Origin: a virus
Taxonomy: Duplodnaviria > Caudoviricetes
IMG/VR virus record: IMGVR_UViG_3300028585_000028
Coordinates: 1 to 50,495 of that record
Strand: one strand, 5' to 3'
DNA length: 50,495 bases
Below the pieces are notes generated by a model, which worked only from the letters and a program-made list of their open reading frames with translations, had not been told where the DNA came from and made no database searches. Below are positions 923 through 50,495 of this stretch, piece after piece (the stretch's first letter is position 1; every line of letters begins with the position of its first letter). The position numbers and the translations under genes are program-made.

Positions 923-1005
923 GGGGCACGCGCCGGTTCGGGTTCGGCACGTGCCCCTTGTTACCCCGTCAGGTCGTGAGCCTGTTGCGCGCTTAGCGGC
1001 GGGGC
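923..1005 (-). ncRNA. structured intergenic RNA element (three-way junction plus long hairpin)
   Basis: GCCCCG..CGGGGT closing stem with two inner hairpins (963-1005), followed by a 13-bp hairpin GGGGCACGTGCCG/CGGCGCGTGCCCC (923-957). Confidence 0.4.
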
Positions 1006-9651: not shown

Positions 9652-9713
9652 CCCTCTGTGCTAGTCTGAGCGCGCGACCAGCCATGGTAGCTCCTGCGGT
9701 GTGGTAACGGCAG

Positions 9714-22653: not shown

Positions 22654-22675
22654 GTAGCACAGAGAGGACGCCCTG

Positions 22676-32841: not shown

Positions 32842-32844
32842 GCC

Positions 32845-33783: not shown

Positions 33784-34177
33784 TGTCGGCCTCCTTCTTC
33801 ATGGTGCGTTGCTGGTACAGGATGGTGCCGAGCGAGATGCCGGTCAGCACAGAGAGGAGCTTGGTGGACGTCCCGGTGGCGACGACTCCTCGAATCAGCG
33901 TGCCGCGTGCGGGATCTTCGAGGTTGCCGGTGAGCTGGAGGATGACATCGAGTGTGGCGACGTCGAGCTTACCCGAAACTTCGCTCCGCCTTCCACTCTT
34001 GCGATGAGAAACGAACGCCCGAGAGAATCCGGTGAGGCTGGCGATGTGCGTCGGGCTCCAGAAGTTCTGCTCGGAGAACTTCTCGACCTGCTCGATGATC
34101 CACTCCTTGCTCTTCTGGTTCGAGCGGACATCGTTGCGCAGCACGATGGCTTCCATGACACGTCGCTGATGGTTCAC
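33776..34177 (-). CDS. double helix-turn-helix DNA-binding protein
   Basis: SPTHIASLTGFSRAFVS and STKLLSVLTGISLGTI; GTGA overlap with the primase gene. Confidence 0.7.
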   Translation of the reverse strand: MNHQRRVMEAIVLRNDVRSNQKSKEWIIEQVEKFSEQNFWSPTHIASLTGFSRAFVSHRKSGRRSEVSGKLDVATLDVILQLTGNLEDPARGTLIRGVVATGTSTKLLSVLTGISLGTILYQQRTMKKEADNG

Positions 34178-36522: not shown

Positions 36523-36560
36523 GCCGCCTCCTCTGTGTGTGGTGGTGTTGCTGGTACGGG

Positions 36561-36598
36561 GAGAGCCCCGCGAGCATGGCTTTACCCACGGGGCTCTC
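36561..36598. terminator. long intergenic hairpin (terminator or processing site)
   Basis: GAGAGCCCCG..CGGGGCTCTC perfect 10-bp stem after the SSB gene. Confidence 0.55.
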
Positions 36599-36644
36599 TG
36601 TGCTGCTCAGCGGCGCAGCTACCGCATCTGGTGACGACCCTGGG

Positions 36645-37418: not shown

Positions 37419-37427
37419 GTTGTTCTC

Positions 37428-38261: not shown

Positions 38262-38421
38262 GGGCGGTGTCGTTCTCGACGATGTCCGTGACCTGATGCG
38301 TGGTCAGGGCGGGCTCGCCGTGGTGGTCGACGAACTCCTTGTTGGCGGCGACGGGGCTCGCGGCCTCGATGACCTCGGACTGACCGGAGCGACCGGTCAC
38401 TTTGAAACGCTTCGCGGGCAT
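38254..38421 (-). CDS. small hypothetical protein (55 aa)
   Basis: ACCACACAC leader plus RBS. Confidence 0.65.
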   Translation of the reverse strand: MPAKRFKVTGRSGQSEVIEAASPVAANKEFVDHHGEPALTTHQVTDIVENDTARA

Positions 38422-38450
38422 GGTTGCCCCCTTCTCTTGTGTGTGGTAAG

Positions 38451-39155
38451 TCACCCGAAAAATCCGGGGTGGCAGGTGTTGCAGGAGGAGTCCGACGGCA
38501 GCTCGTGGTGCCTGCCAAGCTGAACCCACTGGTAGACGCTCGTGACCCTGTCGATGATCTGCTGGGCAAGATCGGGGTTGTACTCCCACTCGTAGCCCCA
38601 CAGATCGTCGACCCCGAAGGCGTCCCGTGGAATGAAGACTAGCACGCCCGTGGACCTATCGTAACCACTCAGGCGGGCTCCGTGGAGGTACATCGTGAGC
38701 TGCCCGAGGTAGCTGGGCGGTGGCCCCTGGATCTTGTAGACCTTCACCTTCTTCTTCGACGTCGACTTCCAGTCGCCAATCACCTCCTTCGTGATGACGT
38801 CGAGGCTGCCGTAGATGTCGCCGTAGCCGGGGATCGTGCAAATGAAGACCTTCAGCTCGAAGACTGCTCCGCTATCGGGGCCGAACATCTCCATCGCCAT
38901 GTCGTTCTTGCCGGGGATCGGCCGCATGACGACGGTCGCGAGCTTCTCGATCAGCGTGTGCATCGCTGTCCCCAGCCAGGGAAACATGCTGAACTCGCGC
39001 TCCGGCTGATCGCCGGCCATCTTCCGACCGAGACACTTCAGGCACGGGTCCGCCATGTCGGACGGGCCGATGGTGCGCTGCTGATCTCGCGCCGTCTCGG
39101 TGACGATCAGCTCACGAGCGGCTCGCATGAACCGCTCGAAGTCGAGGCTGCCCAT
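38451..39155 (-). CDS. Cas4-like PD-(D/E)xK exonuclease
   Basis: IGPSDM..C..C, GTAMH, GSLD...DWKS, QLTMY, C-terminal CxxC. Confidence 0.85.
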   Translation of the reverse strand: MGSLDFERFMRAARELIVTETARDQQRTIGPSDMADPCLKCLGRKMAGDQPEREFSMFPWLGTAMHTLIEKLATVVMRPIPGKNDMAMEMFGPDSGAVFELKVFICTIPGYGDIYGSLDVITKEVIGDWKSTSKKKVKVYKIQGPPPSYLGQLTMYLHGARLSGYDRSTGVLVFIPRDAFGVDDLWGYEWEYNPDLAQQIIDRVTSVYQWVQLGRHHELPSDSSCNTCHPGFFG

Positions 39156-39493
39156 TAGAGCTGGGACGCTTGCTTCAGCGTCTCCGCCACGGCCCACCGG
39201 AGCGAGTCGACACCCTGCGGCAGCGCACCGAGCTTGACCAGCGCCTCCTGCACGCCGGGCAGCACCTGGTCGACCGTCGGCCCAGTCGGCAGCGGGTGTC
39301 GCTCTTCGGTGACCGTGACCATCGTCACGCTCTTGACGACGGCCTGCGGCTGGTAGGCAGGATCGCGCAGCTCTTGCAGGCTGGCGACGAAGTCGTACGC
39401 CTCGTCGGCCGTCGGGAAGGTGGTCTCGATGTCGGTGGGGATGCACTCGATGCGCCACACCTCGACTTCTGAAATCAGGTTAGGCGTTGCCAT
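39155..39493 (-). CDS. hypothetical protein
   Basis: 112-aa ORF; TAATG coupling. Confidence 0.75.
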   Translation of the reverse strand: MATPNLISEVEVWRIECIPTDIETTFPTADEAYDFVASLQELRDPAYQPQAVVKSVTMVTVTEERHPLPTGPTVDQVLPGVQEALVKLGALPQGVDSLRWAVAETLKQASQL

Positions 39494-39803
39494 GCATGTC
39501 CTCGATTCTGGCGATCAGATTGTTGATCGCAACTCGTTGTGCGGTGACCCTACCAGGGACGAACATCTCGCCGTAGAAGGATGCTCCCGCGAATTGGTTC
39601 TTGCCGTCGAACGTGACCGTGCCGACCTTCATGTTGTTCGCATCCCGCAGCTCGAACGTCTGGCCGGTGAACTCGTGGTTACCCAGCATCGTGACGCCCG
39701 TGCCATCGAGCGCATCCCAGACCTGATCGTAACCGGACGGCTTGCGGACTGCCCCGCGGCTGTTCTTCCGCGAGTGATCGTACTCTCTCCCGTCTGTGCT
39801 CAC
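39480..39803 (-). CDS. hypothetical protein
   Basis: GTGA overlap; 107 aa. Confidence 0.65.
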   Translation of the reverse strand: MSTDGREYDHSRKNSRGAVRKPSGYDQVWDALDGTGVTMLGNHEFTGQTFELRDANNMKVGTVTFDGKNQFAGASFYGEMFVPGRVTAQRVAINNLIARIEDMHGNA

Positions 39804-40444
39804 GCGTCCACCGCCGCCTGCTGGATGCTCGGGAAGGGCTGAAGGGCAGGGGCCGGCTTTGGCTCGGGCTTCGGCTTGACCTCGCGCGGGCGGGTGGGAG
39901 CCTTCTTCGGGGCCGGCTTCTTGACGGGCGCCGGGCGCACCGCCTCCACGACGGCAGGCTCGGCCTCGACCACGGGCGCAGCGCGCAGCGGCTTCACGAT
40001 GAGGTCCGTCAGCACAGAGGCTGCGAGGTAGACGGCCCACGGCATGATCCCGGCGAACCCGATGCCACCCCAGAACGCGAGCGGGTCGGGGTTGGCGAGC
40101 GCGGCGACGTGCACGATGTTGCCTGCGCTGCTGATCGCGGTGAAGACGATGGTCCCGAGGATGGCCTTCTTCACCTTGGCCTTCTTCCGCTCGTCGTAGC
40201 GCAGGATCACCTCGGCCGTCTTGTAGACGATGATCGCGAGGTCGACGGCGAGTGGGAGCGCCCAGTACAGGTAGGGCGGGAGCCCCAACCAGGGCGCGAC
40301 GGCGTAGAGCCCGCTGAAGGAGACGATCGACGCGAACACGAACAGGCCGAACACTGCGCCGGTGACAGCGTAGAGAAGCCATGGCGCTCCGGCGCTGACG
40401 CGAGCCCCGGCTTGCGTCTTAGGGGATCTCGGGGACGTGCTCAT
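39800..40444 (-). CDS. DUF2637-like membrane protein with Pro/Lys-rich tail
   Basis: VSFSGL..LPLAVD..SSAGNIVH; 4 TM. Confidence 0.75.
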   Translation of the reverse strand: MSTSPRSPKTQAGARVSAGAPWLLYAVTGAVFGLFVFASIVSFSGLYAVAPWLGLPPYLYWALPLAVDLAIIVYKTAEVILRYDERKKAKVKKAILGTIVFTAISSAGNIVHVAALANPDPLAFWGGIGFAGIMPWAVYLAASVLTDLIVKPLRAAPVVEAEPAVVEAVRPAPVKKPAPKKAPTRPREVKPKPEPKPAPALQPFPSIQQAAVDA

Positions 40445-40796
40445 GTTCTCTCCTGAACTCTTCGACGGTGGCCGGCATGGGCATCGGCCCGATGAAGACG
40501 CTACCGTCCTCGGTGTCTGCGACCTCGCGCTCTTTCGGCTTGCCCGGCATCGAGTGCTTCTCGCACGGGCGTTGGCCGAAGCCGTAGCCGTCGTTCCGGC
40601 AGTACGGGTCGGTCGAGATCATCCCGGTGAGGTAGTCCTGGGGGCACGAGCAGCAAAAGCAGTTCGTGCGCTCGAACGTGGACGGGAACGCGTGCACGAG
40701 TCGGCTCTCGATGCCCTGGGGCGTGGTGACGACCTCCGTCCACGTGACCGACCCGTCTTCGTGGCCGACAGCGTCGATCTTCTTGACGCGGTTCAC
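40419..40796 (-). CDS. Cys-rich hypothetical protein
   Basis: CFCCSC...DPYCRN...PCEKH. Confidence 0.7.
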   Translation of the reverse strand: MNRVKKIDAVGHEDGSVTWTEVVTTPQGIESRLVHAFPSTFERTNCFCCSCPQDYLTGMISTDPYCRNDGYGFGQRPCEKHSMPGKPKEREVADTEDGSVFIGPMPMPATVEEFRREHEHVPEIP

Positions 40797-41053
40797 TCGA
40801 TGATCTCCCAGCCCTCGTCGGTGCGCTGGATCTTGTCGCCGGGCTTCAGCGTGAGCGCGTTGGTGATCGTGTCGAGATCGAGCCAGGATGAGCCCTCGCC
40901 GAACATGGTGTCGGCTTCCTCGTGTCGGATCTTGCCGGTCGCGTACCTCCTGCGCAAGCTCAGCACTTCCTGGTCTTTTGCATCCACCTCGTCGACCAGC
41001 TTCTCTGCGCTAGCCTCGGTGCCGGTCCATTTCAGAAACGTGGGGTCATCCAT
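40793..41053 (-). CDS. hypothetical protein
   Basis: AGGAGG RBS; 86 aa. Confidence 0.7.
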   Translation of the reverse strand: MDDPTFLKWTGTEASAEKLVDEVDAKDQEVLSLRRRYATGKIRHEEADTMFGEGSSWLDLDTITNALTLKPGDKIQRTDEGWEIIE

Positions 41054-41265
41054 TAGTCCTCCTGAGTGATGAAGTTGCAGTAGTAGTCGCCGAGACCATT
41101 CTCCAGATACCGGCCACCCTTGTCTTCGCAGAGCTGCTTTAGCGCCGCCTGCTTGACGATGTTCTCTTCCGTCTCTTCGCCGCATCCAGAAACGAACACG
41201 ATAATGAACGCCACGACGACCGCTGCCGAAAAAAATCGACGGCGGATCTTCCCACGCGGGCTCAT
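41053..41265 (-). CDS. small lipoprotein
   Basis: Basic N-terminus, hydrophobic core, lipobox VSGC. Confidence 0.6.
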   Translation of the reverse strand: MSPRGKIRRRFFSAAVVVAFIIVFVSGCGEETEENIVKQAALKQLCEDKGGRYLENGLGDYYCNFITQED

Positions 41266-41369
41266 CTCCAGCTCGCAATCGGAACGTCGGGCGCGGCAAG
41301 CGCGAGCGCCGTCACGAAGATCGCGATAGCGACGCCGACGATGACGGCGTCCCAGTCGTCCTCGTTCAT
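41262..41369 (-). CDS. small membrane peptide (35 aa)
   Basis: ATGA overlaps; AVIVGVAIAIFVTALALA. Confidence 0.55.
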   Translation of the reverse strand: MNEDDWDAVIVGVAIAIFVTALALAAPDVPIASWR

Positions 41370-41788
41370 GAAGTAATCTTCCGGTTTGCGACGTCGAGGA
41401 TAACGGACATCGCGAGTGAGGTGGGCGTGTCGGCCCTGTTCTTCTGAAGCGCCGCGCGCACCTGCGCCTCGGTGATCGGCTCGGGGGCGACCGTCGGCGG
41501 CGTCGTCTCCCACTCGCCCATGAGGTCGCGCGCCTCTTCGTCGGTGTACCGGTCGCCATGCTCGTCGACCCAGTGACGGCGCGGACCACCGCCGAGGGTA
41601 AGCCGAAACATCGTGCGCGGCTGATCGCGACCGCCGTAGATGGTCGTCCCGGGCTCGGTCGGCAGGGGCGGGGGCGGCGGGGTGGTGAGGCCGTCGGGCA
41701 ACAGCGGGCCTAGCACCTTTGCCGCCGACGGGTACCAGTCGTTCACGCGCTGCCACGCTTCGCGCTGCTCGTCGGTGAACTCGCTCAC
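41366..41788 (-). CDS. hypothetical protein
   Basis: 140 aa; LPTEPGT motif. Confidence 0.75.
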   Translation of the reverse strand: MSEFTDEQREAWQRVNDWYPSAAKVLGPLLPDGLTTPPPPPLPTEPGTTIYGGRDQPRTMFRLTLGGGPRRHWVDEHGDRYTDEEARDLMGEWETTPPTVAPEPITEAQVRAALQKNRADTPTSLAMSVILDVANRKITS

Positions 41789-42087
41789 AGCCCGGCCTTC
41801 TTCGAGATCTCGGTGATGACGCCACGGTCGCTCGGGGAGAGCTGGACCAGTCGCTCCTGCGTCTCCACCTTCTTCTTCATCGCGTACCGCGCCGACTGGA
41901 TGAGCTGCTCCGCGATTCGCATCGCCTCGTCGGGCGTCACGCGGGCGACAGCGCCGGGGCGGTTCTTCAGCCAGTCGATGCCGAAGGTGATGTCGACCAT
42001 GCCGGGGACATCTTCGCGACGTCGGGTGCGCTCGTCGAAGTTCTCGGACGTCTTCGCGTTCATGAACGTGATGCTCTTGTCGGCCAT
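41785..42087 (-). CDS. hypothetical protein
   Basis: 100 aa; GAGGAGG RBS. Confidence 0.8.
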   Translation of the reverse strand: MADKSITFMNAKTSENFDERTRRREDVPGMVDITFGIDWLKNRPGAVARVTPDEAMRIAEQLIQSARYAMKKKVETQERLVQLSPSDRGVITEISKKAGL

Positions 42088-42111
42088 GATGCCTCCTCTG
42101 TTTGTGTGGTG

Positions 42112-42191
42112 TGGGCCGGGCGGGAGTCGAACCCGCGTCCTCTGCCTGTGTTGCGGCGCGCTCCAGTGCTCTACCTCTGAGCTACCGGCCC
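42112..42191 (-). ncRNA. tRNA-like RNA with perfect acceptor, D and T arms but no canonical anticodon arm
   Basis: GGGCCGG TA GCTC-AGAGGTA-GAGC A [25 nt irregular] AGGAC GCGGG-TTCGACT-CCCGC CCGGCCC A. Confidence 0.8.
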
Positions 42192-42278
42192 GTTTGGCGG
42201 GGCACCCGTTCCACGGGGTGCCCCTTGCTCGTTCGAGTGCGAGTCGTCAGACATAGGTGCACTATCGGAGAGCCAAAC
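42192..42278 (-). ncRNA. multi-stem RNA element abutting the tRNA-like RNA
   Basis: 7-bp closing stem GTTTGGC/GCCAAAC with a stacked 9-bp hairpin GGGGCACCC/GGGTGCCCC. Confidence 0.45.
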
Positions 42279-42304
42279 CGTCTACCCGCGATGACGCGGA
42301 GAGC

Positions 42305-42871
42305 TTACTTGAACGTGACCTTGCGGTTGCCCTCGTCGTAGAACGCCGACGCGGCGTCCTCGCCGAGGATGCGCTTGATCGCGGGGCGGTCCGGCGTGAT
42401 CTTGTAGAGGTCGCGGTTCGGGTACACGACCTCCTCACGCACGACGTCGTTGCCGGCCGTGGTCTGGCCGACGACCTTCCTCGTCTCGGAGTAGTCGTAA
42501 GGCTTCTCGACCAGGAACTTCGCCTCGTTGAACTGCGGGTTGCGGCCGATGAGGATCTTGCCGCCGTCGCCACCCTTGCCGGCCGCGTTCTGGCCGTAGT
42601 CCAGGGCGCGGGCGCGCTCCGTGAGCTTCGCGAGGCGGGCCTCGATGTCCTCCTTCGTGGCCTTCAGGAGGACGGCCTCGTCGCGGATCGAGTCGATCTC
42701 GTCCTGCGTCAGCTCGACGGCCTCCGTCTGCTCGCCGCCCTGCGCCGCGATCTGCTCGTCGATCTTCAGCTCGGCCGGGAGCTGGAGCCCCAGGTCGACG
42801 CCGGTGGCCTCGAAGCCGAACTCCTTCAGCGCGTCGAGGTTGTCGTTGGTGATGGTCTTCGTGTCAGCCAT
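42305..42871 (-). CDS. hypothetical protein (coiled coil)
   Basis: 188 aa; AAGGAGG RBS; very high GC3. Confidence 0.85.
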   Translation of the reverse strand: MADTKTITNDNLDALKEFGFEATGVDLGLQLPAELKIDEQIAAQGGEQTEAVELTQDEIDSIRDEAVLLKATKEDIEARLAKLTERARALDYGQNAAGKGGDGGKILIGRNPQFNEAKFLVEKPYDYSETRKVVGQTTAGNDVVREEVVYPNRDLYKITPDRPAIKRILGEDAASAFYDEGNRKVTFK

Positions 42872-42910
42872 GGTGGCCTCCTTTTGTTGGTGTGCCGGTG
42901 TGGTAGGGCA

Positions 42911-42938
42911 AGATTAGCCTACCGGGATGGAATGTCAA
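42911..42938 (-). promoter_or_regulatory. SigA-type promoter TTGACA-N16-TAATCT
   Basis: Consensus -35 and -10 on the minus strand; CCCTACCA lies 2 nt downstream. Confidence 0.75.
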
Positions 42939-44443
42939 GCCTGAGCTTTCAGGCCCTGGCGAAGCTCCTTGCGCTCCTGGCGCTTGCGAGCGATGACCTC
43001 TTCTTCGATGGTGCCACGCGTGATGATCTGCCACGTCTGGTTGCGACGCTTCTGACCCGTGCGGCGCAGACGACCGATGGCCTGCACGTTGAACACGTCG
43101 TCCTCTTCCCACGACAGCCACACCTCTCGGCGTGCCTTGTGCTGAAGCCCGTCGGTGCCCTCGGCGATGGAACGGATGGTCGCGATAATGACGTTCGGTC
43201 CGTCGTCGGTGCCGAAGCGCGCCTTCAGGTCGTTGCGCTCCGTCGTCTTCAGGTCACCCGTCCACGCCTCAGCCCGGATGCCGGGCACCTTGTTGGCGCG
43301 CGTGGTGGCGGCGAGAGCGGCGACCTTCGAGTGCGTGAACACCAGCACAGGGTCACCGGGCTCGACGATGTCGGCGAGCAGGTCGTTGAGAATGTCGAGC
43401 TTCGACGATTTGGCGTCGGGCAGCATCGTGACGGAACCGTCGGCGGCGATGGTCGGCTGCGCGAGCGCGACCTGGCGGAGGCGCACGTTCTTCACCATCT
43501 TGTTGGCGATGACACTGGGGGTGCGGACACCCTCTTCGTTCTCGACCCAGAATGCGGGTGCGTCGGACTCGATCTGCTTGTAGACCTTCGCCTGCGACGG
43601 TGCCATGTCGACGTAGATCTCGATGGGCTCTTCGACGGGCGGCAGCGTTGCGTTGACGCCGTTGGGGTGCCACTCGCAGCACCGCTCCTCTTCCAGGTGC
43701 TGAATGTAGCAGGGCACCTCGGAGATGACGGACCCGGGCTGCTTCTCGGGGCCGATGATGTAGTCCTCGCCGAACCCGGAGAAGAAGGGGTTGATCGTGA
43801 GGATGAAGTGACGGCGGAGCCATGAGCGGAAGTCGTCGACGCCGGGCCTGCCCATGTAGAGCGCGAACCGCTCGAACACATTGGCGTTGCGGTGATCCTT
43901 GTTGCCGTACCAGATCCAGCGCAGCACGTTGTAGAGCCCGTGCATCTTATTGCGGGCGGGCGTGCCGGAGAGCCCGATGCGGAACTGCGTGTTCAGACGC
44001 CAGACGGCCTTCGCGGTGGCGGTGCCGTGACCGGCCATGCGGTGCACCTCATCCAGGATGGCCCCGGTGATGCCCTTGAACAGACGCCAGTCCTGGCGGC
44101 GCATGAGTTCCCACCCGACAAGGTGGATGCTGAAGCCGTCGCGCGCCTCTTTCAGGTCGATGAGACCCGTCTTGTTCTTGGTGTTGATGACGTGCACCTC
44201 GGCGTCGGGCGCGAACTCTGCGATGGTCTCGCGCCACTGTTCGATGGTGTGCAACGGTGCGACGACCAGCCAGACGCCACGGTAGACGGCCATCGTGGCA
44301 ACGCCGGTGCCGGTCTTGCGCGAACCCAGGCACCCGGCGTAGAGTACCTGACCGTCGTTCTTTACGATCTGCTCGACGTCATGCTTCTGGTATTCGGCCA
44401 ACGGGCGACCGGGAAGGTTGTCGAGTGTCTCGCGAACGTTCAT
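42935..44443 (-). CDS. SNF2-like (SF2) DNA helicase
   Basis: LGSRKT, LVVAP, ILDEVHR, LSGTP, EGTDGLQ, QAIGRLRRTGQ. Confidence 0.9.
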   Translation of the reverse strand: MNVRETLDNLPGRPLAEYQKHDVEQIVKNDGQVLYAGCLGSRKTGTGVATMAVYRGVWLVVAPLHTIEQWRETIAEFAPDAEVHVINTKNKTGLIDLKEARDGFSIHLVGWELMRRQDWRLFKGITGAILDEVHRMAGHGTATAKAVWRLNTQFRIGLSGTPARNKMHGLYNVLRWIWYGNKDHRNANVFERFALYMGRPGVDDFRSWLRRHFILTINPFFSGFGEDYIIGPEKQPGSVISEVPCYIQHLEEERCCEWHPNGVNATLPPVEEPIEIYVDMAPSQAKVYKQIESDAPAFWVENEEGVRTPSVIANKMVKNVRLRQVALAQPTIAADGSVTMLPDAKSSKLDILNDLLADIVEPGDPVLVFTHSKVAALAATTRANKVPGIRAEAWTGDLKTTERNDLKARFGTDDGPNVIIATIRSIAEGTDGLQHKARREVWLSWEEDDVFNVQAIGRLRRTGQKRRNQTWQIITRGTIEEEVIARKRQERKELRQGLKAQA

Positions 44444-44742
44444 ACTGACCAGCTACCTACTTCTTCTCCGCAGTTCGTGCATGTCTCGGTGTACGTTGCA
44501 CCGCCCGGACGCACGCTCTCGTGCGTGGCGGTGCGTCGCCCGCATTCGGGGCAGGTGTCTTCCGGCTGCTCGATGAGCGGCACTTTGAGCCCGCCACCAT
44601 CGAACTCTTGGATATGATCGGTGACCCAGAACGCCATGTCCAGAGCACTCGCGTAATGCGCGCGCTCCGACCCGTACTCCTGAATCTCGAACATGAGATA
44701 GGGCATCGTCGGGTCCTTCTTGATCCTGAATCGTCTCGCCAT
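44440..44742 (-). CDS. zinc-ribbon protein
   Basis: CPECG...CTNCG; GGAGG RBS. Confidence 0.75.
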   Translation of the reverse strand: MARRFRIKKDPTMPYLMFEIQEYGSERAHYASALDMAFWVTDHIQEFDGGGLKVPLIEQPEDTCPECGRRTATHESVRPGGATYTETCTNCGEEVGSWSV

Positions 44743-44769
44743 GATTGCCTCCAGTGTTGTGTGTGGTTG

Positions 44770-44818
44770 TGGGCAGGAGGGGAATCGAACCCCTCGGTAC
44801 GGCCGAACCCGGCTGCCC
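44770..44818 (-). ncRNA. 49-nt mini-tRNA (acceptor stem plus T arm)
   Basis: GGGCAG CCG-GGTT-CGG CCGTACC GAGGGG-TTCGATT-CCCCTC CTGCCC A. Confidence 0.7.
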
Positions 44819-44824
44819 TCTGTG

Positions 44825-44977
44825 CTACTGCTCGATGAGCCGTGCTCTGGCGACGCCGACCGGCTCATCGACGCCGGGGTACGTGACCTTGACGTACTCC
44901 AGAGTGACGAACTCGACGATAGTGACCGGCTTCAGTGTGCCGCGCACGTCGAGCAGAACTTCCTGACCTTCTCGCAT
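44825..44977 (-). CDS. small hypothetical protein (50 aa, SH3-like pattern)
   Basis: GGAGGAGG RBS; MREGQEVLLDVRGTLKPVTIVEF. Confidence 0.7.
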   Translation of the reverse strand: MREGQEVLLDVRGTLKPVTIVEFVTLEYVKVTYPGVDEPVGVARARLIEQ

Positions 44978-44978
44978 G

Positions 44979-45077
44979 TTACCTCCTCCGACAGAACAGT
45001 AGCCCGGCGAACAGGATGATGCCGAACGCGCCGCCGATGAGCCATCCCAGCGCGCCGGTCAGCTCGTACGGGCTCAC
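44979..45077 (-). CDS. small membrane peptide (32 aa)
   Basis: GTGA overlap; LGWLIGGAFGIILFAGLLF followed by RRR. Confidence 0.6.
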   Translation of the reverse strand: MSPYELTGALGWLIGGAFGIILFAGLLFCRRR

Positions 45078-45622
45078 GAAATGGCGGCTTGCACGTCGGG
45101 CAGGCCCCAGAGCTTCAGGGCGAACAGGGGGTCGTCCTCGACGTTCTCCGTCAGGTCACCCGTCCAGGCCGTGATGTCGCCGTCAGCAGTGAACGTGACC
45201 GTGCCGTTGACGTTCTCACCCAGGTCCGGGTGGGAGTACTTCTCCAGCGTCACGATGTAGCCGGTCTCGCCCATCTTCGTGACCGACAAGCCCGCCAGTT
45301 CGGCGGTGATGCGCTCGGCGGCGGCGGGGTCGGCTGCCGTGGCGATGCCGGTGCGCTCGACGTGCTCGGCCAGCCGGGCCTTCGTCACCAGCCGGTGAGT
45401 GCCGGCGTACACCTCCGTGATGGCCCGCTGCGAGAGACCGTGCGTCGAGTGTGCGAGGTAGATGAGCGCGTTGGTCTTCTCGCGCTTGACGCGGATCTTG
45501 TCAGCGACCGCGCGTCGCACCTCCATCTCGGCGTCCAGCTCGGTCTGCTTCTCGTCGTGTGCCGCGCGCCGGATGGCGTCGAGTATGTCGAGCTGCGGCT
45601 GCGTGAAGGCTTTCCTAGCCAT
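45074..45622 (-). CDS. hypothetical protein, possible HTH
   Basis: GAGGAGG RBS; HGLSQRAITE. Confidence 0.75.
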   Translation of the reverse strand: MARKAFTQPQLDILDAIRRAAHDEKQTELDAEMEVRRAVADKIRVKREKTNALIYLAHSTHGLSQRAITEVYAGTHRLVTKARLAEHVERTGIATAADPAAAERITAELAGLSVTKMGETGYIVTLEKYSHPDLGENVNGTVTFTADGDITAWTGDLTENVEDDPLFALKLWGLPDVQAAIS

Positions 45623-45851
45623 TCGCGTCCTCCTCTTCGTCTTGGTCGAGCCACCAGTCGATGTGCTCGATGATCTCTTGCAGGGTGGGTGCGTCGTGGT
45701 CCCACGTGAAGTCTTCGTACACCCCGCTGACGTAGAGCTGCACTCCACGCTTCCCGTCGCCGAAGACTTTGCACCGCACCCCGCGATGCAGGATGACGAC
45801 CGTCGTCGGTGCCGACCTGTGCCGCGTGAAAGCGACTCGGGTGCGGCTCAC
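45615..45851 (-). CDS. hypothetical protein
   Basis: GTGA overlap; 78 aa. Confidence 0.6.
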   Translation of the reverse strand: MSRTRVAFTRHRSAPTTVVILHRGVRCKVFGDGKRGVQLYVSGVYEDFTWDHDAPTLQEIIEHIDWWLDQDEEEDANG

Positions 45852-46387
45852 GAGTAGTCGCTCTCGTCCTGCCGGTAGCCGGAGCGGGGGGCGAACGTGA
45901 GCGGGTTGGAATCGCCGCCCTCGTAGGCTGCTCGGTCGTCCAGGTTGAATCGCTTCCCGCGCGGCCCCTTCCACGGCTTCGGGTCGAGCGGGATGTTTTC
46001 GTGGGCCGCGTACTTCAGCGCCATGGCGCGCGCGTCGGACGCGGTGCGGAAGACGGAACCCGACGTGTCGTCGAAGCCCGGCGCGAGGTAGGTGTCGATC
46101 TTGTCGAGCGTCGAGTGGTAGCGCAGGATGGCGTGAAGGGTGCCGATCCGCGTCGGCTGCGCGACGATGAAAAGTGCGCCACCCTCGATGGGGAACGGAC
46201 GCGCCACGGCGCGCCACTTGCGCGGCATGTGCTTGGTAATGCGGGACCAGTCGATCTTTTCGGGCATGGGTGCCTCCAGGGTGAGTCCAGTGAATCCAGT
46301 GATGAGCGATGAGGGGGTGAGCTTCGCCAGATCAGCGGCGGTCGGTAGCGGGCTGCCAGCAGGCAGAAAGTACAGGTCTCCACTCAT
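45848..46387 (-). CDS. hypothetical protein
   Basis: 179-aa ORF; ATGA overlap. Confidence 0.7.
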   Translation of the reverse strand: MSGDLYFLPAGSPLPTAADLAKLTPSSLITGFTGLTLEAPMPEKIDWSRITKHMPRKWRAVARPFPIEGGALFIVAQPTRIGTLHAILRYHSTLDKIDTYLAPGFDDTSGSVFRTASDARAMALKYAAHENIPLDPKPWKGPRGKRFNLDDRAAYEGGDSNPLTFAPRSGYRQDESDYS

Positions 46388-46845
46388 CGGAGCAGGCTGT
46401 TCAGCTTGGCGTGGTCGCCGTTGCGGTACGCCTCGGTGGCCTGGCGAAGGATCTCGACGGCGTTCTCGTCGTTCTCCGGGTCACCCTCGTAGATCGTGGC
46501 GTCGTTCAGCATGACGGTGATCGTGCCTGTCCACAGGTTCGTGTCGATGAGCACGGTCGAGTTGGACACGTCGACGTCGAGCATTCCCGGCTGCTCATGT
46601 GCGGCGTCGTCGGTGGGGTCGTCGGGGCGGGCGGCGTTGTCCACGCTCGCGTCCGGCAGGGGCTGCGGCGTCCAGTCGCGGACTCGGCCGGCCACCAGGA
46701 TCGCGAGATCGTCGCCGCTCATAGGCCACTCACCCGGCAGTGCTGCCACTTCCGACACGGTGGCGTGCGTAGCCACCGCTGCGACTGCGGTCGCGTGCTG
46801 CTCGACCCGCCCCGTTTCCAACTCACGCTCTTTCGTTGCGTCCAT
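46384..46845 (-). CDS. hypothetical acidic protein
   Basis: 153-aa ORF. Confidence 0.7.
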   Translation of the reverse strand: MDATKERELETGRVEQHATAVAAVATHATVSEVAALPGEWPMSGDDLAILVAGRVRDWTPQPLPDASVDNAARPDDPTDDAAHEQPGMLDVDVSNSTVLIDTNLWTGTITVMLNDATIYEGDPENDENAVEILRQATEAYRNGDHAKLNSLLR

Positions 46846-46990
46846 TGCTCTCGTCCATTATCTGTGCGGGCGACAAGTGGCAGTAAAGACACTCGTCGCG
46901 TTGGTCTCTGTGATTAAAGATGATTCGGTGCGTCCGACGGTACTTCCACACCGCCTGGCAGTAGTAGTCCGACGGTTCGTCGGCCATGGC

Positions 46991-47167
46991 TTACAGGCGG
47001 AACCGTGCGACGACGCGGGCTTTCGTCGTGTCGTCGTGGTCGGTGAGCCAACCGGCCAACTGGTCGGCCACCTCGTCGTGAACCTCGCGCGCCCGTCGTT
47101 CGGGTCGCGTCGTGCGTCGTGCGGTGCCGTCTTCGGCGCGGACGGTCTCTGCGATTGCGGTTGCCAT
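46991..47167 (-). CDS. small hypothetical protein
   Basis: AGGA RBS; 58 aa. Confidence 0.6.
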   Translation of the reverse strand: MATAIAETVRAEDGTARRTTRPERRAREVHDEVADQLAGWLTDHDDTTKARVVARFRL

Positions 47168-47171
47168 GGTC

Positions 47172-47369
47172 CTACTTCTTTCCAGCGCGGTTGACGTTCT
47201 CGATGATGGATGCGGCGGCTGCCGCCCTCTGTGCTGCCTGCGCCTGTCGGCGCTCCCGCTGTTCACGGTCGGCGGCGTTACGTGCACGTCGCTCTCGGTC
47301 GGCGTCGTGCTGCGCGGCGCGTGCCAGCACAGAGGGGTCGCTCGCCCGGCGTTCTGCTCGGTTGCTCAT
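47172..47369 (-). CDS. small Arg/Ala-rich protein
   Basis: 65-aa ORF; ATGA overlap. Confidence 0.6.
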   Translation of the reverse strand: MSNRAERRASDPSVLARAAQHDADRERRARNAADREQRERRQAQAAQRAAAAASIIENVNRAGKK

Positions 47370-47599
47370 TCGTCGCCCCCGGTGAGTTCGGTGACCAACT
47401 GCCGCTCTTCCTCTTGTTCGATCTCCTCTTCCAAGATGTCGCTATCCATCGTCGCCCACTCGTCGAACTCTTCGGTGGGCGTGCCGTCGGCGTCGAAGAA
47501 CTTCGGGTCGGTCAACATCTCTTCGGGCACGTCCAGTTCGTACACCTCCGTCACGCGGGCGGTGTAGGTGCGGGCGTAATTGCGTCGTACGGTTGCCAT
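47366..47599 (-). CDS. small highly acidic protein
   Basis: GGAG RBS; 77 aa, EEEIEQEEE. Confidence 0.7.
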   Translation of the reverse strand: MATVRRNYARTYTARVTEVYELDVPEEMLTDPKFFDADGTPTEEFDEWATMDSDILEEEIEQEEERQLVTELTGGDE

Positions 47600-47736
47600 T
47601 AGTTGCTCTCCGTCATGCTTGCGAGGTAGGCGTTTGTGACGCCGTCGGTGTGGTGTTCGGTGAGGTACGCGACCGCGTCGGGCAGCCACGCGAATTGCGC
47701 GACGTCCACGCCGTCTATGTTGACTTGCCAGCGCAT
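47599..47736 (-). CDS. small hypothetical protein (45 aa)
   Basis: TAATG coupling at both ends. Confidence 0.55.
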   Translation of the reverse strand: MRWQVNIDGVDVAQFAWLPDAVAYLTEHHTDGVTNAYLASMTESN

Positions 47737-48755
47737 TAGATGAGCGGGCGTGCGGCGCGCACGATGTCGTCGAGCAGGGACAGGCGCGCGTCGTCGTGAG
47801 CTTCATACTCAGACACGGGGGCATCCACGTCGCCGTCGCCGTACTTGTCGGACCAGGCTTCCATTCGCGCGTCGTACTGTGCGATGAGCGCCCCCAGCTT
47901 CGCCGGTGCTTCAGCGCGGGCCGTTGCTTTCGCTTCGGCTTCGATCCGTGCGGCAGTGAGCGCGTCCAGCTGCTCTTTCGTGACGCTGATGTCTTCCAGC
48001 GCCGCCTCTCGCGCCAGTTCGGTGCCGTAGTAGCCGTAGCTCTCGACGGTCACAGTCCAGGCGTACGTTCCGTTATCCGTCGTGGCGTCCAGGTCGACAG
48101 GCTCGTCGTGGCTGAGGCGCGTGGGGTTCACCGCGTACCCGATCCCGTATACGTCGCCGTCGATGTAGGCGCGCCACGTGTCGCGGTCGCTCTGGGTGTA
48201 CTCGTCGGACGTGCCGGTGCCGCCCGTGACCTCACGGTGAGCCGGGGTGTCGAGGATGAGCAGGTAGTCACCCTGCATCGACCCGGGGAGCTCGTGCACG
48301 GTCACGCCGTGGAAGATCGACAGGTAGCGGACGGCGCTCGTTGCGTGCCGACCCCACTTATTCCATGCCCGCTCGACCGCCTCGGCGGCGTCCTCGTCAT
48401 CGAACACACCACCCACGAATGACAGGCCCCAGCCCGCCCATTTTCCACGGTGCAACCAGTACGCGGGCGCGTACGCGTCGCCGTCGGGGCCGTTGTCGGT
48501 GCTGGTCCGCTCGATGACGGCCAACAGGCGCAGGTCGTCGGTGGCGCGGAACTGGCGGTCACCCGCGAACCCGTAGGCGCCGGGGGTGTCGTGCCAGTTG
48601 GTGTTGATCCGGTCGTACTCAGGGCGGGGCCGGTGGTAAGCGGTCTCGTTGCCGTCGCTCTCCTCCACGCTGAACGGCGTGGGGTAACGCTTCCCGGTCA
48701 CGGTTCCAACCATGGGCGTCGGGTCGTCGTTCGTCGCGGTGGTGTATTCGGTCAT
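47736..48755 (-). CDS. hypothetical early protein (339 aa)
   Basis: Long ORF; ACCACACAC leader. Confidence 0.8.
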   Translation of the reverse strand: MTEYTTATNDDPTPMVGTVTGKRYPTPFSVEESDGNETAYHRPRPEYDRINTNWHDTPGAYGFAGDRQFRATDDLRLLAVIERTSTDNGPDGDAYAPAYWLHRGKWAGWGLSFVGGVFDDEDAAEAVERAWNKWGRHATSAVRYLSIFHGVTVHELPGSMQGDYLLILDTPAHREVTGGTGTSDEYTQSDRDTWRAYIDGDVYGIGYAVNPTRLSHDEPVDLDATTDNGTYAWTVTVESYGYYGTELAREAALEDISVTKEQLDALTAARIEAEAKATARAEAPAKLGALIAQYDARMEAWSDKYGDGDVDAPVSEYEAHDDARLSLLDDIVRAARPLI

Positions 48756-48791
48756 GGCCTGCGCTCTCTGTGTGTGGTGTGGTCGTGCGAG

Positions 48792-48839
48792 TGCCCCGGG
48801 CGCGCGGTGAGCGCGCCTAGCCGGTCTGCCGGCCGGGGC
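48792..48839 (-). ncRNA. compact three-way-junction RNA element
   Basis: GCCCCG GCCGG-CAGA-CCGGC TA GGCGCGC-TCACC-GCGCGCC CGGGGC A; all stems perfect. Confidence 0.6.
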
Positions 48840-48850
48840 TTGGTGCGGGT

Positions 48851-49492
48851 CTAGCGGAGCGGGATGGATGGCTGAAGCATGACGACGTACGACGTCGAGT
48901 CGTATTCGGGGAACGTCATCACGACCGGCTCGCAACCCGTGCGGGCGCTGTCTCGAGTCGTCGGGGCGACGGTGCCGAAGCGCCAGGTCATCGGGGTGTT
49001 GCGCGAGTGCTTCAGCTTCGCCACCTTCGCCAGCTTCGCGATGTCCAGCACCGGGTTCCCGTCCAGCTCGGCGATTGCGTCCAGCTCAGGGATGAGGCGC
49101 CCGACCGGGGGAATGTTGCCAGGGATGGCGGTTCCCATGATCGTGCCGCCGCTGTGCGTCGCGGTGAGCGTGACCGTTCCGAACGGGCGGTGAGCGGCGT
49201 CGCCCGATCCTGCCGGTTCGCTCACCTCCAACTCGACGGTGCCGGTCGTCTTCGACAGCGCCACGACGAACTCGGCGGGGAGCATCGTCTGGGGCATGTT
49301 GCCGTCGTGCGGGAGCGTCACGATGGCGCGTCCGACCATGTACCGGTCCGTGCTGACTGCGGTGAGCGTGTCGTCTTCCACGCGGACGGCGACACCTCCC
49401 AGGATCGGGGTCATCTGAGCATCCTTCTTGGTCGCGGCGAACACGAGGACGTTGGCGATGGCGCGGACGGCTTCGGGGGTGAGCGTGGTCAT
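48851..49492 (-). CDS. DNA polymerase III beta-clamp-like protein (two-domain size)
   Basis: PILGGVAV..DDTLTAVSTDRYMV and GNIPP motifs, as in the DnaN central domain; 213 aa. Confidence 0.75.
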   Translation of the reverse strand: MTTLTPEAVRAIANVLVFAATKKDAQMTPILGGVAVRVEDDTLTAVSTDRYMVGRAIVTLPHDGNMPQTMLPAEFVVALSKTTGTVELEVSEPAGSGDAAHRPFGTVTLTATHSGGTIMGTAIPGNIPPVGRLIPELDAIAELDGNPVLDIAKLAKVAKLKHSRNTPMTWRFGTVAPTTRDSARTGCEPVVMTFPEYDSTSYVVMLQPSIPLR

Positions 49493-49513
49493 GGTGTGTG
49501 GGTGCTTTCTGTT

Positions 49514-49537
49514 TGGTGGTGGTGGTGGTGGTGGTGG
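49514..49537 (-). repeat. (CCA)8 trinucleotide repeat in a 5' leader
   Basis: (TGG)8 on the plus strand, intergenic. Confidence 0.9.
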
Positions 49538-49539
49538 TG

Positions 49540-49938
49540 CTAGTTGGCGGGCAGGTGGGCGACGGCCCACCCGGCAGGCTCGTCGTGCTGCTCTCCGGTC
49601 TCATCGTCGATTACCTCCACGGTGCAGAGCACGTAGAGGCCGGGCTGCGCCAGCACGTCTTCTGCGAGCTTGCCGCCCAGGTATTCGCTCGCGTGCATCA
49701 CGGCCCCGCGGTAGCCGTGCTGCCCGGTGTACCCGTGGAGAAGGGTCCAACCGTCGTCCAACCCTTCCACGTCCGCGCCCGGCGTGTCGTCGGTCGTCTC
49801 GACGTGGTACAGCGTCTCCGGTGCGAGTGTGTCGTGGTCGTGGCTCACAGTGCCGTCGGGGTGCACTCGGAACGGGGACCCGAACTCCGTCCAGGCATTC
49901 AGGTCGTCGGCGGTGATGGCTTCGCGGTCGCTGCTCAT
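49540..49938 (-). CDS. hypothetical acidic protein
   Basis: 132 aa; ACAGAAAGC leader. Confidence 0.75.
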   Translation of the reverse strand: MSSDREAITADDLNAWTEFGSPFRVHPDGTVSHDHDTLAPETLYHVETTDDTPGADVEGLDDGWTLLHGYTGQHGYRGAVMHASEYLGGKLAEDVLAQPGLYVLCTVEVIDDETGEQHDEPAGWAVAHLPAN

Positions 49939-49979
49939 TGGTCTGTGCTTTCTGTGCGGGGTTGGTAAGGGCTGGGGTA

Positions 49980-50486
49980 CTACAGGGTGACGGGGGTGTA
50001 GACGGTGCCGATGCCCCACGGGACGGCGTTGCGGAGCTTCGCGCCCCGGTAGTACTTCTGCGGCACACCCGTCATGCCGTTGGCGCGGCGGGTCGCTTCC
50101 GGGGTCGGTTCGGCGGCGATGGGGCACCAGTTCGCCGGGCGGGCGACGGCGGTGGCGTACTCGACCGACTCGGGAGTCATGTTGTCGAGCCCCCGTGTTG
50201 CGGGGTCACCCCACTGCGCTCCGATGAGCGCGCCCGATCCATTCAGGCGGCTGGGGATCAGCGGCATCGTGTGGTGCGCGCCGTTCAGGCTCCGTGACCC
50301 GTCGTCGTACGTGCCGTAGCACTCCACCCCGTCGACGGTGCGCGAGTAGTGGAACCATGGCGTGCCCTCACGGCGCTGGGGTCGCTGGTCGGTCCGCTGG
50401 TCGGCGTAGACGGTGAACCCGGCGGTGATGAGCGTCCGTGCGTAGTCGGTGGCGGTCGGCGTGAACAGCGGGGGCGTCGTGGTCAT
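49980..50486 (-). CDS. hypothetical protein
   Basis: 168-aa ORF. Confidence 0.75.
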   Translation of the reverse strand: MTTTPPLFTPTATDYARTLITAGFTVYADQRTDQRPQRREGTPWFHYSRTVDGVECYGTYDDGSRSLNGAHHTMPLIPSRLNGSGALIGAQWGDPATRGLDNMTPESVEYATAVARPANWCPIAAEPTPEATRRANGMTGVPQKYYRGAKLRNAVPWGIGTVYTPVTL

Positions 50487-50495
50487 GGTGGGCGC

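What the first reader, a model, noticed from the sequence alone, without database searches (positions are those of the whole stretch)
42112..48839. Candidate system: a graded family of anticodon-less tRNA-like RNAs punctuating the early operons
Seen: intergenic gaps of the leftward arm repeatedly hold the same topology, namely a closing stem, inner hairpin(s), and a final hairpin stacked directly on the closing stem. The instances are a full tRNA mimic (42112-42191), an upstream multi-stem element (42192-42278), a 49-nt mini-tRNA (44770-44818), a three-way junction (48792-48839), and a related junction at 963-1005. Three of them end in an unpaired A followed closely by ACCACAC and the next gene's start. 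None has a U-tract, so they do not look like terminators. Inference: the phage may use host tRNA-processing enzymes to cut its polycistronic early RNA (tRNA punctuation, as in mitochondria or MALAT1 mascRNA). This could also release stable tRNA-shaped decoys against tRNA-targeting anti-phage defences. I know of no description of such a set in an actinophage, but cannot search to confirm.
Basis: partly seen in the sequence, partly recalled or inferred. Interest (0 to 1): 0.85.

Follow-up and report, generated by a model that had tools for sequence, protein, structure and literature searches.

The report
Non-decoding tRNA-shaped genes in a phage operon
Two of the five flagged elements are real tRNA-derived RNAs that cannot read codons and sit just before genes in a soil phage's early operon, probably as cutting signals for host tRNA-processing enzymes, while the other three are ordinary GC-rich hairpins.

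Summary
The window is a ~50 kb, 64% GC uncultured actinophage. Its only relatives found are Curtobacterium phages Commonplace and Nonagon.

- **42112-42191(-)** is a true tRNA fold (Rfam 56.3 bits) on a tRNA-Lys-type scaffold. Acceptor, D and T arms are canonical. The inner anticodon stem and loop are replaced, giving an irregular 25-nt arm that cannot decode.
- **44770-44818(-)** is a 49-nt acceptor/T-arm minihelix with a canonical T-loop.
- **Relatives:** both carry one aberrant tRNA-like gene near the minihelix's position. Their flanks are almost identical, their bodies unalignable, and both stems are kept by compensatory changes.
- **The other three elements** (42192-42278, 48792-48839, 963-1005) have no tRNA signature. 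The shared "topology" is common by chance (102 loci against 77±11 in shuffles).
- **ACCACAC** is a general 5'-leader motif. It also follows plain hairpins and a promoter-like site.

Best reading (about 0.45): excision by host RNase P/Z punctuates the operon. Rivals are decaying tRNA relics and trans-acting decoys. There is no RNA evidence.

Anticodon-arm-less tRNA-like genes recur in other viral contigs. Earlier notes of this scan had already reported such genes on other DNA.

The parts
42112..42191 (-). 80-nt tRNA-Lys-type cloverleaf with 7-bp acceptor, 4-bp D stem with GG loop, 5-nt variable loop, 5-bp T stem with canonical T-loop and discriminator A. The anticodon arm is an irregular 25 nt (3 outer pairs + 19 nt). 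No CCA is encoded.
   Evidence: Rfam tRNA 56.3 bits; ARAGORN forced call; the 25-nt 5' half matches 73 metagenome loci, 63 of them tRNA-Lys by ARAGORN; same acceptor and T arm as actinobacterial tRNA-Lys(UUU) and tRNA-Met genes
44770..44818 (-). 49-nt minihelix with 6-bp acceptor-like stem, 4-bp hairpin, 6-nt linker, 6-bp T arm with exact T-loop motif and unpaired A. The coaxial stack is 12 bp, as in tRNA. There is no D or anticodon arm.
   Evidence: sequence; fold; T-arm-only hit to RF00005, 11.7 bits, E 0.64; exact T-loop motif, 2 hits against 0.20 expected
42192..42278 (-). 87-nt multi-stem element ('module A') with a 7-bp closing stem whose 3' strand abuts the first base of the tRNA-like gene, stacked on a 9-bp GC hairpin. 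It is not tRNA-like. It may be a 3'-end protector of the upstream mRNA if RNase P cuts at 42191.
   Evidence: fold z -2.9, 0 of 200 shuffles as good; z-scan window 42235-42176 z -3.9; no Rfam hit; no similar DNA in phage records; 1 difference over 42142-42347 in a ~96% relative
42088..42111 (-). 24-nt CA-rich leader with ACCACAC and a Shine-Dalgarno site, ahead of the ATG at 42087
44743..44769 (-). 27-nt CA-rich leader with ACCACAC and a Shine-Dalgarno site, ahead of the ATG at 44742
48792..48839 (-). 48-nt three-way junction (6-bp closing stem, 5-bp hairpin, 7-bp hairpin with 5-nt loop; 13-bp stack). It is very stable but has no T-loop or elbow partner, so it is not shown to be a tRNA mimic.
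   Evidence: fold z -4.1; z-scan; no tRNA-model hit at E<=10; flanking genes have no homologue in Commonplace, so no comparison is possible
963..1005 (-). Claimed junction; not distinguishable from chance folding
   Evidence: z -0.74, 44 of 200 shuffles fold as well
36561..36598 (-). Plain 16-bp hairpin between the SSB-like and primase genes, followed by a CA-rich leader with ACCACAC. It shows that the leader motif is not tied to tRNA-like elements.
   Evidence: Commonplace has a 13-bp hairpin plus CA-rich leader at the same gene junction
42911..42938 (-). Promoter-like site (perfect TTGACA, 16-nt spacer, TAATCT) placing ACCACAC about 7 nt after the -10 element, so it may mark a transcript start
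   Evidence: sequence context; below the threshold of the consensus scan, so this is inference only

Best explanation
The leftward (early/replication) gene string carries two tRNA-derived, non-decoding RNA modules. One is a tRNA-Lys-type cloverleaf whose anticodon loop and inner stem were replaced. The other is an acceptor/T-arm minihelix. Because the acceptor-T stack and T-loop (and the D-loop elbow partner in the full-size element) are intact, host RNase P should cut at the first G. Since no CCA is encoded, RNase Z should cut after the discriminator A. This would split the polycistronic RNA. The upstream message would end at the base of a protective stem (module A at 42192-42278). The downstream message would begin with a short CA-rich leader 24-27 nt before its start codon. 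Small tRNA-shaped RNAs would be released as by-products.

Shown: the anatomy, the position, the scaffold origin, and conservation of the stems in relatives.
Inferred: every cleavage step and its benefit.

The other three flagged structures are ordinary stable intercistronic hairpins, acting as stabilisers or attenuators, and not tRNA mimics.
For: - Canonical acceptor, D and T arms with a non-canonical 25-nt anticodon arm.
- The minihelix keeps a 12-bp stack and an exact T-loop.
- Both lie in intergenic gaps, co-oriented with their neighbours and directly ahead of an SD and ATG.
- Commonplace and Nonagon each hold exactly one tRNA-model hit in the whole genome (35.4 and 41.5 bits). It lies between the homologue of the 50-aa gene and the helicase, where the window has the minihelix.
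- The flanks of those two are identical at all but 1 of 178 upstream positions. The bodies are unalignable, yet the acceptor and T stems are kept by compensatory changes.
- Across the four elements 47 of 48 stem cells pair, and 5 of 12 pairs show double changes.
- The part that varies freely or is deleted is exactly the part that processing enzymes do not need.
- A ~96% identical relative in run X2 shows 1 difference over 42142-42347 against 27 in the next 150 nt.
- There is no integrase or resolvase, so the elements are not attP.
- RNase P is known to cut non-tRNA phage RNAs and operon mRNAs (PMC11143913, passages read).
- In other viral contigs, 10 of 24 distinct arm-less or truncated tRNA-likes have an SD, a start and an ORF within 60 nt downstream, against 15.4% of random positions.
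Against: - There is no RNA evidence at all.
- Only three genomes are available, so the stem covariation could also arise from independently acquired real tRNAs that decayed.
- tRNA folds give modest z-scores: -2.0 and -1.9 alone, and -0.8 and -0.9 for the whole gaps.
- The window elements lack an encoded CCA, and the minihelix lacks the D-loop elbow partner, so the efficiency of RNase P cleavage is unknown.
- The window's full-size element has no counterpart at its own position in Commonplace.
- The difference table was truncated after 42497, so variation in the minihelix was not seen. The differences are also clustered, so the low count near the tRNA-like gene may reflect mosaic ancestry.
- 4 of the 10 positives are relatives of one another.
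- Earlier scan notes on similar elements elsewhere favoured relics in two of three cases.
Confidence: 0.45

Rival explanations
1. The elements are relics. They are former phage tRNA genes (tRNA-Lys-like and others) disabled by an indel or replacement in the anticodon arm, or by an internal deletion (the minihelix). They are not yet erased and have no function, and the hairpins are unrelated.
For: - Phage tRNA genes turn over quickly.
- The scaffold is plainly a tRNA-Lys gene type.
- Hairpin-mediated slippage can delete or remodel exactly one arm.
- My IMG/VR scan required intact D and T arms, so it could only find anticodon-arm defects.
- Earlier scan notes judged two similar cases to be relics.
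- The window's full-size element has no positional counterpart in Commonplace.
Against: - Four elements in three phages are all defective in the decoding part, yet 47 of 48 stem cells pair.
- Commonplace and Nonagon differ by compensatory changes in two stems within otherwise identical DNA.
- The aberrant arm is unchanged in a relative that differs at about 3.7% overall.
- In a compact 50-kb lytic genome, the 217-nt gap is more conserved than the adjacent coding DNA.
Confidence: 0.27
2. The excised tRNA-shaped RNAs are the selected product. They act in trans, for example as sponges for host factors or defence toxins that recognise the acceptor end or elbow of tRNA (or tRNA-Lys in particular), or as a stable scaffold displaying a variable arm.
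For: - The scaffold type is tRNA-Lys, a classical target of anticodon nucleases (recalled).
- The anticodon-arm region is the hypervariable part between near-identical phages, and the replaced unit coincides with the RNA's ends to within 2 nt.
- Non-decoding tRNA-likes recur in many viral contigs, some capped by tetraloops, and one contig holds three in tandem.
- Phage tRNAs are proposed to counter tRNA-targeting defences (PMC10264068, abstract seen in the listing).
Against: - No target is identified.
- The variable arm has no complementarity longer than 10 nt anywhere in the phage genome, which is chance level.
- A decoy for an anticodon nuclease would be expected to keep the anticodon loop.
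- The minihelix lacks most of the tRNA body.
- Flanking proteins give no hint.
Confidence: 0.15
3. The full-size element is a working decoding tRNA with an unusual anticodon arm, as the GenBank annotation 'tRNA-Arg(cct)' for Commonplace implies.
For: It scores above Rfam's tRNA threshold. ARAGORN names an anticodon. Compact or irregular decoding tRNAs do exist in phages (PMC5389517, passages read; earlier scan note).
Against: - No 5-bp stem with a 7-nt loop can be drawn.
- The ARAGORN 'Ala' call lacks G3:U70.
- ARAGORN finds nothing in Nonagon, whose record says 'tRNA-OTHER'.
- The Commonplace loop has G at position 33, and 6 nt instead of 1 between the D and anticodon stems (sequence).
Confidence: 0.04
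4. All the structures, tRNA-like ones included, act mainly as U-tract-less transcription terminators or attenuators of the actinobacterial kind.
For: They are GC-rich stems at gene ends: 48792-48839, the module A hairpin and 36561-36598. A hairpin sits at the same SSB/primase junction in Commonplace.
Against: There are no U-tracts. The genes downstream lack evident promoters of their own and start 24-40 nt after the structures. This would not explain the exact T-loops or the tRNA scaffold. It may well hold for the three non-tRNA hairpins.
Confidence: 0.09

Closest known systems
Plant mitochondrial t-elements and the mitochondrial tRNA-punctuation model
   Same: These are tRNA-like structures, often only acceptor plus T arm, placed between or beside coding regions. 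Cleavage by RNase P and RNase Z sets the mRNA ends (PMC1920247, abstract seen in the listing; the punctuation model is recalled).
   Different: Here the setting is a bacteriophage operon in an actinobacterial host. Cleavage is untested, and one element keeps a full D arm and a remodelled anticodon arm.
MALAT1 mascRNA / MEN-beta tRNA-like (Rfam RF01684)
   Same: It is a tRNA-like module with a reduced anticodon arm. RNase P cleavage creates the 3' end of the upstream RNA, which a structure protects. This is analogous to module A abutting the tRNA-like gene (recalled).
   Different: There is no match to RF01684 in the window at E<=10. mascRNA is eukaryotic and nuclear, and here the downstream RNA is an mRNA.
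Non-tRNA phage substrates of RNase P (P1/P7 C4 antisense RNA, phage M3 RNA) and RNase P cuts in operon mRNAs
   Same: Phage or operon RNAs are processed by host RNase P through acceptor/T-stem mimicry (PMC11143913, passages read).
   Different: Those are single regulatory RNAs or weak mRNA sites in enterobacteria. They are not tRNA-gene-derived modules placed before genes.
Phage tRNA genes and tRNA pseudogenes (Rfam RF00005)
   Same: The scaffold, the Rfam score, and the co-transcription with neighbouring genes.
   Different: The anticodon stem-loop is absent or irregular in all four elements of the three phages, so they cannot decode.
Bacillus cereus tRNA-Other
   Same: It is a tRNA-shaped RNA that does not work in translation but has a cellular role (PMC3399842, abstract seen in the listing).
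   Different: It is chromosomal and retains an anticodon arm. It is charged by LysRS (as cited in PMC5389517), and its context is unrelated.

Membership tests
Canonical tRNA (RF00005) | Covariance-model score above the gathering threshold (29 bits) | tested here: met
   42112-42191 scores 56.3 bits. The minihelix gives only a T-arm hit of 11.7 bits, which is not met.
Canonical tRNA (RF00005) | 5-bp anticodon stem with a 7-nt loop presenting an anticodon | tested here: not met
   The arm is 3 bp + 19 nt + 3 bp. The ARAGORN stem has 2 non-pairs. The MFE fold has no canonical arm. The arm is absent in the minihelix.
Canonical tRNA (RF00005) | Identity elements matching the called isotype (G3:U70 for Ala) | tested here: not met
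   The third acceptor pair is G-C. The scaffold matches tRNA-Lys genes, 63 of 73.
tRNA-like processing element (t-element / punctuation) | Acceptor/T-arm mimic located between cistrons of one transcript | tested here: met
   Met for 2 of the 5 flagged elements. A single transcript is inferred from co-orientation only.
tRNA-like processing element (t-element / punctuation) | RNA ends generated by RNase P and RNase Z at the element's borders | not testable with these tools
   No RNA run holds the sequence.
mascRNA-menRNA (RF01684) | Match to the family model | tested here: not met
   No hit in the window at E<=10.
Intrinsic terminator | GC-rich hairpin followed by a U-tract | tested here: not met
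   None of the 11 terminator-like sites in 32800-50495 coincides with a flagged element. The count equals chance, 9.5±3.4.
Phage attP overlapping a tRNA gene | Integrase encoded by the phage | tested here: not met
   PF00589 and PF00239 are absent from the window. None is annotated in Commonplace.
YrlA / Y RNA-like, and tmRNA | Match to the family models | tested here: not met
   YrlA scores 14.5 bits against a gathering score of 69. Permuted tmRNA scores 11.8 against 47. ARAGORN finds no tmRNA.

The most novel reading that the evidence does not exclude
Many phages may deliberately maintain non-decoding tRNA-scaffold genes, with acceptor, T arm and elbow conserved and the anticodon arm deleted, capped or hypervariable. 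These would be an exchangeable module with two uses. First, host RNase P/Z excise them and so punctuate operon mRNAs just ahead of a ribosome-binding site. Second, the released tRNA-shaped RNAs soak up host factors or defence toxins that recognise the tRNA body or 3' end. The window's pair, the swapped cassette in Commonplace and Nonagon, the tandem set in IMG/VR contig L042 and the arm-less elements in other viral contigs would all belong to this undescribed class.
Probability: 0.13. Interest if true: 0.85.

Novelty: new variant of a known kind. Interest (0 to 1): 0.58.

Why it matters
If host tRNA-maturation enzymes do excise these elements, this would be a bacterial-virus counterpart of mitochondrial tRNA punctuation and of MALAT1/mascRNA processing. 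It would give a simple, portable way for a phage to set mRNA ends and stabilities within an operon. It would also mean that 'tRNA' or 'tRNA-OTHER' annotations in actinophage genomes hide a class of non-decoding RNAs. The same elements are natural candidates for tRNA-shaped decoys. The claim can be tested directly with the cultured relatives Commonplace and Nonagon.

Tried and rejected
**Searches for relatives**
- Megablast of 41700-44900 against phage records found no match.
- The helicase protein and a 3-sequence helicase alignment were searched in viral, metagenome and genome contigs. Pattern matches came back, but none was confirmed as a relative.
- The 25-nt 5' half gave 0 matches in viral contigs.
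- blastn of the 217-nt gap against phage records gave only generic tRNA similarity in 13 records and nothing for module A.

**RNA evidence**
- No RNA holder is listed among 10 runs.
- Contigs of 4 DNA runs were laid, but the difference table was cut after 42497. The minihelix's variation, and the 42115-42141 stretch between two contigs of run X2, were therefore not seen.

**Readings rejected**
- attP reading: no integrase.
- Antisense reading: no complementarity above 10 nt.
- Homology of the genes downstream of the tRNA-likes: none, E 2.2 and 9.9.
- Function hints from flanking proteins: 0 Pfam or PHROG families for 8 of 10.
- Two further putative gaps (44978-45073, 45749-45847) fold no better than chance, z -0.6 and -1.0. 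Not every gap is structured, although my gene calls there are uncertain.
- The whole 217-nt gap folds at z -0.9.

**Other**
- I did not build a custom covariance model, because Rfam's tRNA model at E<=10 had already found nothing more in the window.
- Six paper searches found no description of such sets in actinophages. Supplements were not opened.
Full report
**What the window is**

The window is a whole IMG/VR virus record (50,495 bp, CheckV 91% complete) with 63.8% G+C. It has a rightward structural arm and a leftward arm of minus-strand genes from about 32.8 kb to the right end.

The only relatives found are Curtobacterium phages Commonplace (PQ868961) and Nonagon (PQ868950), with 55% helicase identity. 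Every other phage is at 30% or below. Searches of viral, metagenome and genome contigs with the helicase or a helicase alignment confirmed no further relative. No integrase or resolvase is encoded, and none is annotated in Commonplace.

**The full-size element, 42112-42191(-)**

- It is the only Rfam hit of the window at gathering level (tRNA, 56.3 bits) and ARAGORN's only gene.
- The acceptor stem (7 bp), D arm (4 bp, GG in the loop), 5-nt variable loop, T arm (5 bp with a canonical loop) and discriminator A are all canonical.
- Between them Infernal aligns 3 bp + 19 nt + 3 bp where the model expects 11 nt.
- ARAGORN's 'Ala(cgc)' requires two non-pairs in the stem and a 12-nt unpaired variable region. 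The third acceptor pair is G-C, not G-U.
- The first 25 nt occur exactly in 73 metagenome loci. ARAGORN of these tRNA-Lys (55 UUU, 8 CUU), 2 tRNA-Ala and 1 undetermined, and finds nothing in 7.
- Actinobacterial genomes have tRNA-Lys(UUU) and tRNA-Met genes with the same acceptor and T arms.

The element is therefore a tRNA-Lys-type scaffold. It keeps the three outer pairs of the anticodon stem, but the inner stem and loop are replaced by 19 nt. It cannot decode, and no CCA is encoded.

**The minihelix, 44770-44818(-)**

It has a 6-bp closing stem, a 4-bp hairpin, a 6-nt linker and a 6-bp arm with an exact T-loop, then an unpaired A. The 6+6 stack equals the 7+5 = 12 bp of a tRNA. The motif GGTTCGANTCC occurs exactly twice in the window against 0.20 expected (2 of 100 shuffles reach 2), once in each element. 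Rfam's model sees only the T arm (11.7 bits, E 0.64).

**Relatives**

Whole-genome scans give exactly one tRNA-model hit each in Commonplace (35.4 bits) and Nonagon (41.5 bits).

- *Annotation.* They are annotated 'tRNA-Arg(cct)' and 'tRNA-OTHER'. ARAGORN finds nothing in Nonagon.
- *Position.* Both lie between the homologue of the window's 50-aa gene and the helicase, which is where the window has the minihelix.
- *Anatomy.* Both have perfect acceptor and T arms, an encoded ACCA, and aberrant, extended central regions.
- *Cassette swap.* Aligned to each other, the flanks are identical at all but 1 of 178 upstream positions and nearly all downstream positions. The body is unalignable from 2 nt before the first G to the 3' acceptor strand, with compensatory changes in both stems.
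- *Covariation.* Over the four elements 47 of 48 stem cells pair, and 5 of 12 pairs carry double changes. No slid control (±1-3 columns) exceeds 65% pairing. With four sequences this shows that all four obey the tRNA top-half structure. It does not show that they share one function.
- *No positional counterpart.* The window's full-size element follows the homologue of Commonplace gene 72, where Commonplace has no gap. The genes downstream of the elements are not homologous.

**Natural variation**

Run X2 holds a relative with 105 differences and 8 gaps over 42142-45000. The table shows 1 difference in 42142-42347, which covers tRNA-like positions 1-50 (the whole aberrant arm), module A and the end of the upstream gene. 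The next 150 nt show 27 differences.

The table was cut after 42497, and the differences are clustered. This is therefore only suggestive of constraint, and the minihelix could not be assessed.

**The other three flagged elements**

- 42192-42278 is stable (z -2.9). Its closing stem ends exactly where the tRNA-like gene begins.
- 48792-48839 is very stable (z -4.1) and has a 13-bp stack.
- 963-1005 is not better than chance (z -0.74).
- None has a T-loop or any tRNA-model hit at E<=10.
- The bare topology is common: 102 loci observed against 77±11 in 8 block shuffles.
- A z-score scan of the leftward arm gave 18 of 1764 windows below -3. Several are inside genes (44476-44615, 42626-42705), alongside the intergenic ones at 48.8, 42.2 and 36.6 kb.
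- A plain hairpin plus CA-rich leader sits at the SSB/primase junction in both the window and Commonplace.

**The ACCACAC motif**

It occurs 16 times against 5.9 expected, 15 of them on the minus strand. It follows the two tRNA-like elements and the junction. It also follows plain hairpins (36543, 38447) and a promoter-like site in which a perfect TTGACA overlaps the helicase stop codon (42904). I read it as a general 5'-leader feature of this phage and not as a tRNA trailer.

**Wider occurrence**

- *Pattern scan.* I scanned IMG/VR with a pattern that demands a D-stem end and a T arm no more than 21 nt apart. Of the 115 matches, 27 (25 distinct sequences) pass strict tRNA criteria: acceptor at least 6 of 7, D stem at least 3 of 4, T stem 5 of 5. 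Of these 27, 11 have only a 9-13-nt linker in place of the anticodon arm, 7 have 15-20 nt, and 9 have 21 nt.
- *The 21-nt class.* This class may be compact decoding tRNAs with 3-bp stems, so I do not count it as non-decoding.
- *Context.* Of 17 elements examined, 10 lie in loci where ARAGORN finds no tRNA, and 7 lie beside tRNA arrays.
- *Downstream genes.* 10 of 24 distinct elements have an SD, a start and an ORF of at least 50 codons within 60 nt downstream, against 15.4% of 4,800 random positions. Four of the 10 are mutual relatives, and one element too close to a locus end was dropped.
- *Tandem set.* A separate 66% G+C contig (L042) has three tRNA-model hits in tandem (36, 40 and 51 bits). 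Their anticodon loops are 5, 4 and 16 nt, and ARAGORN calls only one.
- *Caveat.* The pattern could only find anticodon-arm defects, so it cannot show that this arm is lost preferentially.
- *Earlier notes.* This scan had already recorded single anticodon-arm-less phage tRNA genes on other DNA. One was read as a cutting signal or fresh relic, and two as relics.

**Mechanism**

The intact parts are those that RNase P, RNase Z and the CCA-adding enzyme recognise (established knowledge of tRNA maturation). The variable or missing part is the one they do not need.

I therefore favour excision by host enzymes, which cuts the operon RNA ahead of a short leader, with module A protecting the new 3' end (confidence 0.45). 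Every cleavage step is inferred.

| Reading | Confidence |
|---|---|
| Excision by host RNase P/Z (punctuation) | 0.45 |
| Relic tRNA genes | 0.27 |
| Trans-acting decoy or scaffold RNA | 0.15 |
| Terminators or attenuators (likely for the plain hairpins) | 0.09 |
| Working tRNA | 0.04 |

**Comparison with what is known**

The closest analogues are:
- plant mitochondrial t-elements (PMC1920247, abstract in the listing);
- mascRNA (recalled);
- RNase P processing of phage C4 and M3 RNAs and of operon mRNAs (PMC11143913, passages read).

Six searches of the paper library found no description of such elements in actinophages. Supplements were not seen.

**Verdict**

I rate this a new variant of a known kind, with interest 0.58.

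Noticed in passing
window, 19 sites on both strands (e.g. 44818-44825, 36596-36603, 9654-9661, 22657-22664): The 8-mer GCACAGAG occurs 19 times against 2.6 expected, in coding and intergenic DNA, usually as (c/t)aGCACAGAGg. One copy overlaps the first base of the minihelix. In Commonplace the most frequent 8-mers are CAGCACAG and AGCACAGG (24 each, strands pooled). A related ~10-mer is therefore over-represented across this phage group, and its function is unknown.
   Followed up: partly
L001:7378-7458 against L002:7216-7305 (Commonplace / Nonagon): The tRNA-like gene is a swapped cassette. The DNA is identical on both sides, but the RNA body is replaced from 2 nt before its 5' end to its 3' acceptor strand, with compensatory stem changes.
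   Followed up: partly
L042:5995-6436 (IMG/VR contig, 66% G+C): Three tandem tRNA-model hits have anticodon loops of 5, 4 and 16 nt, and a further T-arm-like stretch lies near 6320-6345. A gene with an SD starts about 48 nt after the last one.
   Followed up: partly
IMG/VR loci L160 onward (e.g. L168, L183, L231, L249, L274): These are 57-60-nt tRNA-like genes with canonical acceptor, D and T arms and only a 9-13-nt linker where the anticodon arm should be. They come from contigs of 33-69% G+C. Some loci have no other tRNA.
   Followed up: partly
window 42911-42938 (-): A perfect TTGACA overlaps the helicase stop codon, followed 16 nt later by TAATCT. This places ACCACAC at the likely transcript start of the 188-aa gene (GC3 0.97).
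   Followed up: no
window 44476-44615 (-), inside the 100-aa gene 44440-44742: These are among the strongest local RNA structures of the leftward arm (z -3.4 to -4.8), and they lie within coding sequence.
   Followed up: no
L001:2773-3126 (Commonplace gene 92) and L002:2602-2955: Both relatives are annotated as encoding a ribosomal protein L7/L12 C-terminal-domain protein in the same leftward arm. I did not look for a counterpart in the window.
   Followed up: no
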